Shown one piece after another: positions 35,716 through 36,695 of a DNA stretch of 64,000 nucleotides (positions are counted from its first letter, which is position 1; every line of letters starts with the position of its first letter). The stretch comes from an uncultured Alphaproteobacteria bacterium. GTDB taxonomy: Bacteria; Pseudomonadota; Alphaproteobacteria; Rhizobiales; Xanthobacteraceae. The DNA lies in contig CAVYPJ010000001.1 of assembly GCA_963770385.1 (NCBI GenBank), forward strand, positions 1,168,750 through 1,232,749, given 5' to 3'. A model generated the notes under the pieces. It worked only from the letters and a program-made list of their open reading frames with translations. It had not been told where the DNA came from and ran no database searches. The position numbers and the translations under genes are program-made.

Positions 35716-36066
35716 ATGAGAAACGGGCTCTATTCCATCCACATTCACATGCTCGACGGTGTCAGGGGCCGCGATAGTGGCGTGATCGTTTTACGCGACG
35801 GGCAACTAATCAGCGGCGGCCCGTATTTTTGGTCGATCGGATCTTACACCGTGGGCAATGGGACTTGGAAAGGGCAGCTTGCCACTAACCAGCATACCGA
35901 TTTCCCGGATCCTCTGGTCCGTCCACTGTTCGGCAAGCAGGAAGTGACGAGCGGATTTTCGGGCACGTTTACCGACGACGAGTCCGAGGTGTTTGGTACG
36001 ACGCTTGTCGGCGGCAACCGCAGCCTGAGTTTTCGAGCGACCCTGAAGAGGCTGGCGGACCTCTGA
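35716..36066 (+). CDS. GrlR-like beta-barrel protein
   Basis: MRNGLYSIHI..G..SGVIVLRDGQLISG resembles GrlR family N-termini; GAAGGGG RBS; the upstream part of the 35209 ORF is probably non-coding. Confidence 0.6.
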   Translation: MRNGLYSIHIHMLDGVRGRDSGVIVLRDGQLISGGPYFWSIGSYTVGNGTWKGQLATNQHTDFPDPLVRPLFGKQEVTSGFSGTFTDDESEVFGTTLVGGNRSLSFRATLKRLADL

Positions 36067-36104: not shown

Positions 36105-36172
36105 AAAACAAAACCCCCGCCGGCGTCCGAAGATACCGACGAGGGTTTCATGCTCTTGCCTCTCCAACGGAG
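36105..36172 (-). ncRNA. Candidate roughly 70-nt EcfG-dependent sRNA
   Basis: Lies between a perfect GGAAC-N16-CGTT promoter and a cUUCGg-capped terminator with a T run. Confidence 0.55.
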
Positions 36173-36176
36173 GCGT

Positions 36177-36201
36177 AACGTTGGCCTCACATCTTCGTTC
36201 C
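36177..36201 (-). promoter_or_regulatory. Sigma-EcfG type promoter GGAAC-N16-CGTT
   Basis: Exact consensus match on the minus strand. Confidence 0.65.
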
Positions 36202-36276: not shown

Positions 36277-36301
36277 GCAACCATCGACGGCGTGCCGCGT
36301 T
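36277..36301 (+). promoter_or_regulatory. EcfG-like promoter variant GCAAC-N16-CGTT
   Basis: One mismatch; 34 nt upstream of the Gly/Tyr-rich gene. Confidence 0.45.
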
Positions 36302-36335: not shown

Positions 36336-36611
36336 ATGAAGAAGACTTTAGCAGTTCTGGGCACGGTCGCGGCGCTTGCAGCGACAACCGCTGCTGCGCC
36401 GGCACAGGCGCGCGGCATTGGACCGGGCCTCGCATTCGGTCTCGCCGCCGGCGCGTTGACCGCCGGCGCGATCGCCGCCAGCCACCCCTATTACGGGCCG
36501 GGCTACGGATATTACGGATACGGACCGCGATATTACGATGGCGGCCCGGGCTACGCCTATTACGGCGGCGGTCCGTACTATCGGCACCACTACTATCGCC
36601 ATTACTGGTGA
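36336..36611 (+). CDS. Small secreted Gly/Tyr-rich protein
   Basis: AGGAGG RBS, signal peptide, GPGYGYYGYG repeats. Confidence 0.8.
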   Translation: MKKTLAVLGTVAALAATTAAAPAQARGIGPGLAFGLAAGALTAGAIAASHPYYGPGYGYYGYGPRYYDGGPGYAYYGGGPYYRHHYYRHYW

Positions 36612-36635
36612 GGCAAAGACTTTCACCGGATGAGC

Positions 36636-36666
36636 AAAAGCCCGGAGCGCAAGCTCCGGGCTTTTT
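36636..36666. terminator. Bidirectional terminator between convergent small genes
   Basis: AAAAGCCCGGAGC-GCAA-GCTCCGGGCTTTTT. Confidence 0.85.
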
Positions 36667-36695
36667 GTTGGACACTCGTGTTTCGCCGCGAGGTT

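What the first reader, a model, noticed from the sequence alone, without database searches (positions are those of the whole stretch)
36105..36201. Candidate general-stress sRNA of about 70 nt defined by a perfect EcfG promoter and a cUUCGg terminator
Seen in sequence: minus-strand GGAAC-N16-CGTT (36177-36201) followed within about 70 nt by a long stem capped by C(UUCG)G and TTTTGTTTT. No complete ORF fits between them. Established: EcfG/RpoE2/SigT regulons include sRNAs, for example GsrN in Caulobacter. Inference: an unannotated stress sRNA, transcribed divergently from an EcfG-like promoter driving the Gly/Tyr-rich gene.
Basis: partly seen in the sequence, partly recalled or inferred. Interest (0 to 1): 0.65.

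Follow-up and report, generated by a model that had tools for sequence, protein, structure and literature searches.

The report
Conserved stress-promoter small RNA in Bradyrhizobium

Summary
On the minus strand, GGAAC (36201-36197), a 16-nt spacer and CGTT (36180-36177) are followed by a strong cUUCGg-capped hairpin and UUUUGUUUU (36113-36105). The promoter motif alone is weak evidence: 135 genome-wide matches against about 118 expected. Comparative evidence is decisive.

- A covariance model of the RNA body only, with no promoter, finds one copy in this genome. It finds one in 91 of 150 sampled Bradyrhizobium species and in a few sister genera.
- All 42 hits examined carry GGAAC-N15-17-N(G/A)TT just upstream, with a freely varying spacer.
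- The hairpin shows compensatory changes.
- The internal ATG is not conserved, so the RNA is not coding.
- Rfam 15 has no match, and no paper I found describes it.

The family has three forms. Most species have a two-hairpin RNA of 80-90 nt, followed by a separate EcfG-type promoter for a 34-49-aa hydrophobic ORF. The window has the 5'-truncated form, GUUGGAGAGGCAAGAGCA plus terminator. In close relatives this form is fused as a leader to that ORF and has a weak U-tract. Here the ORF is gone and the U-tract is strong, so the RNA stands alone.

Expression, EcfG dependence and targets remain untested.

The parts
36197..36201 (-). -35 element GGAAC (extended GGAACGAA) of an EcfG-type promoter
   Evidence: Sequence. 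It is invariant (2.0 bits per position) in the homologues with the N16 spacing (39 of 42), while the spacer holds 0.1-0.6 bits.
36177..36180 (-). -10 element CGTT, 16 nt after the -35
   Evidence: Sequence. The TT is invariant and the G nearly so across homologues. The spacing is N16 in 39, N17 in 2 and N15 in 1.
36151..36168 (-). Predicted unpaired 5' end of the RNA: GUUGGAGAGGCAAGAGCA. It is identical in 9 of the 10 genome-derived type-A copies (G114 differs). The transcription start is inferred at about 36168-36171.
   Evidence: alignment; largely unpaired in the fold; the ensemble is not sharply defined. The start is inferred from the usual distance after the -10 and was not mapped.
36114..36145 (-). 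Terminator hairpin. The 5' arm is 36145-36132, the loop UUCG is 36131-36128 and the 3' arm is 36127-36114.
   Evidence: Folds. On 40 homologues, 95.3% of cells are paired, 8 of 18 pairs show compensatory changes, and 0 of 500 shuffles reach this. Both differences from G074 inside the stem turn a U-G pair into C-G.
36105..36113 (-). U-tract UUUUGUUUU, completing an intrinsic terminator for the minus strand
   Evidence: Among 52 distinct type-A loci, a U-run of 4 or more goes with absence of the downstream small ORF.
36105..36170 (-). The whole predicted small RNA, about 64-66 nt
   Evidence: Best hit of covariance models R1 and R2 and the only strong copy in the genome (83.7 and 76.6 bits).
36277..36301 (+). 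Divergent EcfG-like promoter GCAAC-N16-CGTT for the Gly/Tyr-rich gene
   Evidence: Sequence. The same GCAAC-N16-CGTT is read in relatives L006 and L012.
36336..36611 (+). Gly/Tyr-rich secreted protein gene (91 aa), the divergent neighbour
   Evidence: ORF. A homologue lies divergently upstream of the RNA in 24 of 42 loci examined.
35716..36066 (+). Its stop lies 47 nt from the foot of the hairpin.
   Evidence: ORF. No Pfam family at E<=0.01 and no relevant PDB sequence match. A homologue occupies the same place in relatives.

Best explanation
This is a real gene for a stand-alone small RNA of about 64 nt. It is transcribed from a sigma-EcfG (general stress response) promoter and ended by its own intrinsic terminator. 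It belongs to an apparently undescribed RNA family found in most Bradyrhizobium species and some sister genera.

The commonest form is a two-hairpin RNA. It has a 5' stem-loop (SL1) and a terminator whose lower stem, CCCCGUC/GGCGGGG, is nearly invariant. Whether this form is ancestral was not tested with a tree.

In the window's lineage the 5' arm of SL1 is missing. The former 3' arm (GUUGGAGAGGCAAGAGCA) is therefore exposed as a purine-rich single strand at the very 5' end. No gene follows it here.

The most likely mode of action is therefore in trans. Under stress, PhyR frees EcfG from NepR and the RNA accumulates. It then pairs through its exposed 5' end with pyrimidine-rich (CCUCUC/UGCU-like) stretches of mRNAs, probably with Hfq bound at the terminator U-tail.

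What is shown: the anatomy, conservation, covariation, promoter footprint, single copy, and presence of ecfG-nepR-phyR and hfq. What is inferred: transcription, EcfG dependence, the 5' end, trans action, Hfq involvement and the targets.
For: 1. Anatomy and strand asymmetry of the terminator.

2. Family. Model R1 was built from the RNA body only. It hits 91 of 150 Bradyrhizobium genomes at E<=1e-4, almost always once. It hits this genome once. With R2, promoter-bearing copies were confirmed in four other genera of the family.

3. Promoter footprint. All 42 hits have GGAAC-N15-17-N(G/A)TT just upstream. In the 39 with N16, information is 2.0 bits at GGAAC and at the TT of the -10, against 0.1-0.6 bits in the spacer.

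4. Structure. The terminator is 95.3% paired, with 8 of 18 pairs showing compensatory changes and 0 of 500 shuffles reaching this. RNAalifold predicts SL1 independently in the longer forms, with AU/GC/GU exchanges.

5. Separate unit. In 24 of 24 longer-form loci that have the small ORF, that ORF has its own GGAAC-N16/17 promoter after the RNA's terminator.

6. Selection without the ORF. Between the window and G074, both lacking the ORF, the RNA body is 96.6% identical over 59 nt, against 81% for the whole intergenic region. The promoter spacer has diverged. The same ORF-less layout occurs in several metagenome lineages. Among 52 type-A loci, strong U-runs go with loss of the ORF (14/4 against 6/28, Fisher p 4.6e-5; the loci are related, not independent).

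7. The genome has ecfG, nepR and phyR and hfq. The regulator locus's own promoters are GGAAC-N16-CGTA and GGAAC-N16-CATT, so this one is a better consensus match.

8. Not coding: the ATG is not conserved.
Against: - There are no expression data.
- The motif alone is near chance frequency genome-wide.
- No target stands out. The best duplex with a predicted translation start region is -27.9 kcal/mol, against -27.0 for a shuffled seed. There is no complementarity to the neighbouring genes.
- In the longer forms the 'seed' is base-paired in SL1. In one subgroup (G123, G396) it is replaced by a different stem sequence. The exposed purine motif is therefore not a family-wide seed.
- The near-invariant terminator stem hints at a constraint other than termination.
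- In the closest type-A relatives the RNA is the 5' leader of a small ORF. A cis origin of the window's copy is therefore real.
Confidence: 0.7

Rival explanations
1. The RNA is a relic leader. In this lineage it was the 5' untranslated leader of the 34-49-aa hydrophobic ORF (MPxWLEILLDV...). The ORF was deleted, and what remains is a still-transcribed but functionless stub.
For: In 7 of 7 genome-derived type-A relatives with the ORF, the ORF starts 17-94 nt after the hairpin (17-36 nt in six of them). It has no promoter of its own there, and the U-tract is weak. The ORF has no convincing match in this genome.
Against: The RNA body is 96.6% identical between two ORF-less species whose flanks have diverged to about 81%. 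Both stem changes preserve pairing, and the -35 and -10 are kept while the spacer changed. The U-tract is strengthened in ORF-less lineages rather than decaying. In most of the genus the RNA is a separate unit.
Confidence: 0.12
2. The RNA is real and stress-induced, but it does not work by seed pairing. Its function lies in the conserved module AGCAYGAA(A)GACCCCGUC...GGCGGGGUUUU, for example by binding or titrating a protein such as Hfq or another RNA-binding protein.
For: The lower terminator stem and the bases before it are nearly invariant across all three forms and in other genera. The 5' part varies in sequence and even in presence. No base-pairing target stands out.
Against: In the genome-derived type-A copies the exposed 18-mer is identical in 9 of 10, which a pure terminator module does not explain. 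The metagenome contigs were selected with this motif and so do not test its invariance. No protein partner can be named from sequence.
Confidence: 0.12
3. The unit acts in cis on the convergent 116-aa gene. EcfG-driven transcription runs towards it, and either read-through makes antisense RNA or the hairpin serves as a two-way terminator.
For: The gene's stop is 47 nt from the hairpin. In relatives the small-ORF transcript and this gene converge with almost no spacer.
Against: The strong U-tract should stop minus-strand transcripts before the gene. On the plus strand the fold is no better than shuffles, and only UUUC follows. In the L170 clade the plus-strand tail is even poorer. In most of the genus the RNA is not next to this gene.
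Confidence: 0.04
4. It is a chance promoter match beside an ordinary terminator, or a small protein gene started at the ATG behind GGAGAGG.
For: GGAAC-N16/17-CGTT is about as frequent genome-wide as chance predicts. GGAGAGG-N7-ATG looks like a ribosome-binding site with a start codon.
Against: The promoter is kept in 42 of 42 homologues with a footprint pattern. The ATG is AUA, ACA or ACG in many members, and the frame runs through the terminator. In the longer forms the U/C at this position pairs with the 5' G of SL1, as G-U or G-C.
Confidence: 0.02

Closest known systems
GsrN of Caulobacter crescentus (sigma-T/EcfG-dependent sRNA; Tien et al. 2018, PMC5869019)
   Same: Both are small RNAs with a near-consensus EcfG-type promoter and an intrinsic terminator, in an alphaproteobacterium that has the PhyR-NepR-EcfG system. 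It is the only well-studied precedent for a post-transcriptional arm of this stress response.
   Different: There is no sequence or Rfam relation. GsrN uses a C-rich loop against G-rich targets and is processed, whereas this RNA exposes a purine-rich 5' end. GsrN homologues are usually next to the regulator genes. This one is on another contig (C1, against C3 at 2.33 Mb). The GsrN-like RNAs predicted for B. diazoefficiens and R. palustris in that paper rest only on position beside the regulator locus.
Validated Bradyrhizobium sRNAs (BjsR1-10 of Hahn et al. 2016, PMC5082802; BjrC and alpha-r families, which from my own recollection are in Rfam)
   Same: Same genus. They are orphan intergenic RNAs of 60-160 nt with terminators.
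   Different: None of BjsR1-10 has an EcfG-type promoter; RpoD or RpoN promoters are predicted. No Rfam family matches any form of this RNA, even at E<=1 to 10.
EcfG regulon promoters of Bradyrhizobium (Gourion et al. 2009, cited in PMC4842269; Ledermann et al. 2021, PMC8092242)
   Same: GGAAC-N16-CGTT is the consensus, and small hypothetical envelope proteins are typical regulon members. The locus combines up to three such promoters: for the Gly/Tyr-rich protein, the RNA and the small hydrophobic ORF.
   Different: The one regulon paper that I could read, Ledermann 2021, does not mention a non-coding RNA.
sRNAs that double as, or derive from, mRNA leaders
   Same: In type-A relatives the same RNA sequence is the 5' leader of a small ORF behind a leaky terminator.
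   Different: In the window there is no downstream gene. In most of the genus the RNA and the ORF have separate promoters.

Membership tests
Sigma-EcfG (ECF15) dependent promoter | -35 GGAAC and -10 CGTT separated by 16-17 nt | tested here: met
   GGAAC at 36201-36197, N16, CGTT at 36180-36177.
Sigma-EcfG (ECF15) dependent promoter | The genome encodes EcfG with NepR and PhyR | tested here: met
   L115 holds an ECF sigma factor (Sigma70_r2 and r4_2), NepR (56.8 bits) and PhyR (PhyR_sigma2 88.1 bits plus a receiver domain).
Sigma-EcfG (ECF15) dependent promoter | The boxes are conserved in orthologous promoters while the spacer drifts | tested here: met
   42 of 42 homologues have the boxes. 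In the 39 with N16, information is 2.0 bits at GGAAC and TT against 0.1-0.6 bits in the spacer.
Sigma-EcfG (ECF15) dependent promoter | Transcription depends on ecfG and phyR and is induced by stress | not testable with these tools
No published data were found for this locus.
GsrN family | Sequence and structure homology to GsrN | tested here: not met
   No Rfam 15 family matches the RNA at E<=10 in the window or at E<=1 in relatives. I did not confirm that GsrN has an Rfam model, and no direct comparison with a GsrN sequence was made.
GsrN family | An exposed C-rich loop in the 5' hairpin that pairs with G-rich targets | tested here: not met
   The 5' part is purine-rich (GUUGGAGAGGCAAGAGCA) and no C-rich loop is present.
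GsrN family | Position next to ecfG-nepR-phyR (typical, but not universal) | tested here: not met
   The RNA is on contig C1 at 1.205 Mb. The regulator locus is on C3 at 2.326 Mb.
Stand-alone trans-acting sRNA with an intrinsic terminator (Hfq type) | Own promoter, own intrinsic terminator, intergenic, non-coding | tested here: met
   The ATG is not conserved. No gene follows on the same strand.
Stand-alone trans-acting sRNA with an intrinsic terminator (Hfq type) | A conserved unpaired seed with identifiable mRNA targets | tested here: inconclusive
   The 18-mer is identical in 9 of 10 genome-derived type-A copies, but it is paired in SL1 in the other forms. Target scans show nothing above shuffled seeds.
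Stand-alone trans-acting sRNA with an intrinsic terminator (Hfq type) | Binds Hfq | not testable with these tools
   hfq is present (108.6 bits). Binding needs co-immunoprecipitation.
5' leader or attenuator of a downstream gene | A gene on the same strand directly downstream and co-transcribed | tested here: not met
   In the window the next gene is convergent, and the small ORF has no match in the genome. The feature is met in 7 genome-derived type-A relatives.

The most novel reading that the evidence does not exclude
The family records an RNA gene changing roles. In most of the genus it is a two-hairpin stress sRNA. In one clade it lost the 5' arm of its first hairpin and became the leader of a small membrane-protein gene. 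In the window's lineage it lost that gene and returned to stand-alone life with a rebuilt terminator. The truncation exposes GGAGAGG-N7-AUG, a perfect mimic of a ribosome-binding site. This could act as a stress-induced decoy for 30S subunits or anti-Shine-Dalgarno sequences. It could also act as an 'anti-antisense' activator, freeing sequestered ribosome-binding sites of target mRNAs.
Probability: 0.15. Interest if true: 0.75.

Novelty: new member of a known kind. Interest (0 to 1): 0.58.

Why it matters
The general stress response decides how Bradyrhizobium survives in soil and infects soybean. Its known output is a list of more than a hundred protein genes (Ledermann 2021, PMC8092242). In Caulobacter a single EcfG-dependent sRNA, GsrN, turned out to be a main effector of stress survival.

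A second, unrelated RNA family is genus-wide and always wired to the same promoter type. It gives a concrete, testable candidate for the missing post-transcriptional arm in an agriculturally important genus.

The three forms and the linked small hydrophobic ORF also offer a natural series for studying how sRNA genes and mRNA leaders turn into one another.

Tried and rejected
1. Rfam 15 search of the window at E<=10 and of five relatives at E<=1. Nothing lies on the RNA; the only hits are chance terminator look-alikes elsewhere.

2. Public RNA-seq.

3. Linking to the USDA 110 start-site map. A 9.1-Mb single-contig genome (G123) has the RNA at 3.7076 Mb, but I could not show that it is USDA 110. 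The start-site table held is truncated, and the coordinate search found nothing.

4. Exact 17-mer scan of 185,579 species genomes. It returned 63 hits, mostly chance matches in unrelated phyla at about the number expected, and only about a dozen from Bradyrhizobium or alphaproteobacterial MAGs. This scan was of little use; the covariance model was needed.

5. Small ORF in this genome. tblastn found only noise in the basic tail.

6. Pairing of the RNA with the mRNAs of its neighbours (the small ORF and the Gly/Tyr gene) in up to 31 genomes. Mean z was -0.3 and +0.45, so there is no signal.

7. Genome-wide target scans. There is no outlier. My crude gene calls include false ORFs. Many top sites are the antisense strand of ABC ATPase genes, because GGCAAGAGCAC equals the Walker A codons G-K-S-T; that is an artefact.

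8. Coding reading of GGAGAGG-N7-ATG. Rejected, because the ATG is not conserved and the frame crosses the terminator.

9. Second paralogue (GGAGAAAUCC...AGCUCAAAGCCCCGUC). Not found in this genome.

10. The 'GrlR-like' label. No Pfam or PDB sequence support.

Full report
**What is there**

On the minus strand the window reads as follows:
- GGAAC at 36201-36197, then 16 nt, then CGTT at 36180-36177.
- Eight further bases, then GUUGGAGAGGCAAGAGCA at 36168-36151.
- A 14-pair hairpin capped by UUCG, with arms at 36145-36132 and 36127-36114.
- UUUUGUUUU at 36113-36105.

The RNA strand folds far better than shuffles (-34 kcal/mol, z -4.27; 64-nt version z -3.79). The plus strand does not (z -1.23) and has only UUUC after the stem. 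The terminator therefore belongs to the minus strand.

One ATG (36151-36149) follows GGAGAGG. Its frame crosses the terminator into the antisense of the next gene, and the ATG is not conserved.

**Is the promoter more than chance?**

On its own it is not. GGAAC-N16/17-CGTT occurs 4 times in the window against 1.1 expected. It occurs 135 times in the genome against about 118 expected from base composition.

The genome does encode the regulators. An ECF sigma factor, NepR and PhyR lie together on contig C3. Their own promoters read GGAAC-N16-CATT and GGAAC-N16-CGTA, so the candidate is a better consensus match than those.

**Comparative evidence**

BLAST against 400 species of the genus found the RNA body in more than 15 of them. 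The genus is Bradyrhizobium, by the record titles.

I built a covariance model (R1) from 13 RNA bodies without any promoter sequence. Its results were:
- One strong copy in this genome (83.7 bits; confirmed with R2).
- Hits in 91 of 150 sampled Bradyrhizobium genomes at E<=1e-4, nearly always a single copy.
- With R2, promoter-bearing copies in four other genera of the family (G545 and G580, G558, G560, G578).

In all 42 hits inspected, GGAAC-N15-17-N(G/A)TT lies at a fixed distance upstream. The spacing is N16 in 39. In those 39, information content is 2.0 bits at each base of GGAAC and at the TT of the -10, against 0.1-0.6 bits in the spacer. That is a classic footprint, obtained independently of the search model.

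The terminator is 95.3% paired across 40 sequences. Eight of its 18 pairs show compensatory changes, and no shuffle or slid register comes close.

Rfam 15 has no family for any form of the RNA.

**Three forms of one locus**

- **Types B and C** (most species) start about 8 nt after the -10 with AAGUGC. They fold into a 5' stem-loop, SL1. Its outer helix is GUGC/GCAY. Its inner helix is ACCUU/GAGGU, GCCUC/GAGGC or CAGCG/CGCUG. The terminator follows. RNAalifold predicts SL1 by itself, with AU/GC/GU exchanges. The U/C variation at the 'ATG' position is simply G-U against G-C pairing in SL1.
- **Type A**, the window's form, lacks the 5' arm of SL1. The promoter abuts GUUGGAGAGG, and this former 3' arm is unpaired. 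It is identical in 9 of the 10 genome-derived type-A copies; G114 differs.

The locus is syntenic across the genus. A Gly/Tyr-rich secreted protein gene lies divergently upstream in 24 of 42 loci. It has its own conserved GCAAC-N16-CGTT (window 36277-36301).

A 34-49-aa hydrophobic ORF (MPxW[L/M][E/D][I/V]L[L/I][D/N]V...) lies downstream on the same strand in 31 of 42 loci.

**Stand-alone RNA or leader?**

In types B and C the RNA ends in a good U-tract. In 24 of 24 loci with the small ORF, that ORF has its own GGAAC-N16/17 promoter between the terminator and its start codon. The RNA is a separate transcription unit there.

In the seven genome-derived type-A relatives that have the ORF, it begins 17-36 nt after the hairpin in six loci and 94 nt after it in L117. 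It has no promoter of its own, and the tail is weak (UCUUUG). There the RNA is the leader of the ORF behind a leaky terminator.

In the window and its nearest relative G074 the ORF is absent, also from the rest of the genome. The tail is strong, with 8 and 7 U in nine bases.

A metagenome scan gave 71 further type-A copies. One is a near-identical contig (L157). Whole clades (L170, L173) share the window's layout: the Gly/Tyr gene, the RNA with a strong terminator, and the convergent 116-aa gene.

Over 52 distinct type-A loci the counts are:

| | no small ORF | small ORF present |
|---|---|---|
| U-run of 4 or more | 14 | 4 |
| U-run of 3 or fewer | 6 | 28 |

Fisher p is 4.6e-5, but the loci are related and so not independent.

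Between the window and G074 the RNA body is 96.6% identical, against 81% for the intergenic region. Both stem substitutions preserve pairing. The -35 and -10 are kept while the spacer has diverged. This argues for selection on the RNA itself after loss of the ORF.

**Mechanism**

With no gene downstream, a functional RNA here must act in trans. Under stress EcfG is released, the RNA is made, and its exposed purine-rich 5' end is available for pairing. The U-tail and hfq fit an Hfq-type sRNA.

This part is inference. I found no complementarity to the neighbouring genes and no outlier among genome-wide sites. The 'seed' is paired in the longer forms, so the family-wide constant is instead the module AGCAYGAA(A)GACCCCGUC...GGCGGGGUUUU. 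That leaves a protein-binding role open.

**Literature**

- Tien et al. 2018 showed GsrN as an EcfG/SigT-dependent sRNA. They predicted GsrN-like genes in Bradyrhizobium only from position next to the regulator locus. The present RNA is elsewhere in the genome and unrelated in sequence.
- Hahn et al. 2016 validated BjsR1-10, none with an EcfG promoter.
- The EcfG regulon paper that I could read does not mention RNAs.
- The USDA 110 start-site table held in the library is truncated.

**Verdict**

This is a new sRNA family within a known kind, EcfG-dependent sRNAs. It has an unusual evolutionary history in the window's lineage. Expression and function remain to be shown.

Noticed in passing
window 36277-36301 (+) and 36336-36611 (+): The Gly/Tyr-rich 91-aa secreted protein gene has GCAAC-N16-CGTT, one mismatch to the EcfG -35. 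The same promoter is read in two relatives (L006, L012), and a homologous gene is divergently paired with the RNA in 24 of 42 loci.
   Followed up: partly
L116 (G143) 19 nt after the hairpin; L134, L138 and others: A family of 34-49-aa hydrophobic ORFs (MPxW[L/M][E/D][I/V]L[L/I][D/N]V.GYAGF...) travels with the RNA. It has its own EcfG-type promoter in 24 of 24 type B/C loci. It has no Pfam family and is absent from the window's genome.
   Followed up: partly
L101, L122, L128 and other type C loci, about 62 nt after the RNA: In type C loci a conserved 76-aa ORF (MPISALLARIRRLVP...HYDEIVRNFGVG...) lies between the RNA terminator and the small hydrophobic ORF. Its function is unknown.
   Followed up: no
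L151 (G230), L152 (G244), L104 (G558): There is a second, paralogous small RNA with a perfect GGAAC-N16-CGTT promoter. It reads GGAGAAAUCC...AGCUCAAA(A)GCCCCGUC-loop-GGCGGGGUUUU and shares the terminator module. It was not found in the window's genome. In L152 it is not next to the stress-regulator genes.
   Followed up: partly
L113 623-774 (-), genome G545 of another genus: A sub-threshold Rfam match to the Caulobacter sRNA CC2171 (42.8 bits, gathering score 75, E 2.9e-6) lies about 730 nt from that genome's copy of the RNA.
   Followed up: no
L115 1760-1830 (own genome, contig C3 at about 2.326 Mb): The phyR and nepR-ecfG divergent promoters read GGAAC-N16-CGTA and GGAAC-N16-CATT. The -10 of this organism's own stress promoters therefore tolerates departures from CGTT, as in the GATT of type C RNAs.
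   Followed up: partly
It is conserved at this position in relatives.
   Followed up: partly
window 36566-36676 (+): Sub-threshold Thr_leader and MicC matches (27.6 and 26.2 bits) lie over the end of the Gly/Tyr gene. They are just its GC-rich terminator hairpin followed by a U-run.
   Followed up: no
L117 (G189 contig C16) and L007 (G189 contig C18): One species has two copies of the type-A RNA. In one of them a palindromic insert (gcgcatgatcttttcggaaaacc...ggcttttccggatcatgcg), resembling a small repeat element, separates the RNA from the small ORF.
   Followed up: no
window 36155-36164 motif GGCAAGAGCA; genome-wide: The RNA's GGCAAGAGCAC equals the Walker A codons G-K-S-T. Complementary sites therefore pile up on the antisense strand of ABC ATPase genes, which is a trap for target prediction.
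   Followed up: yes
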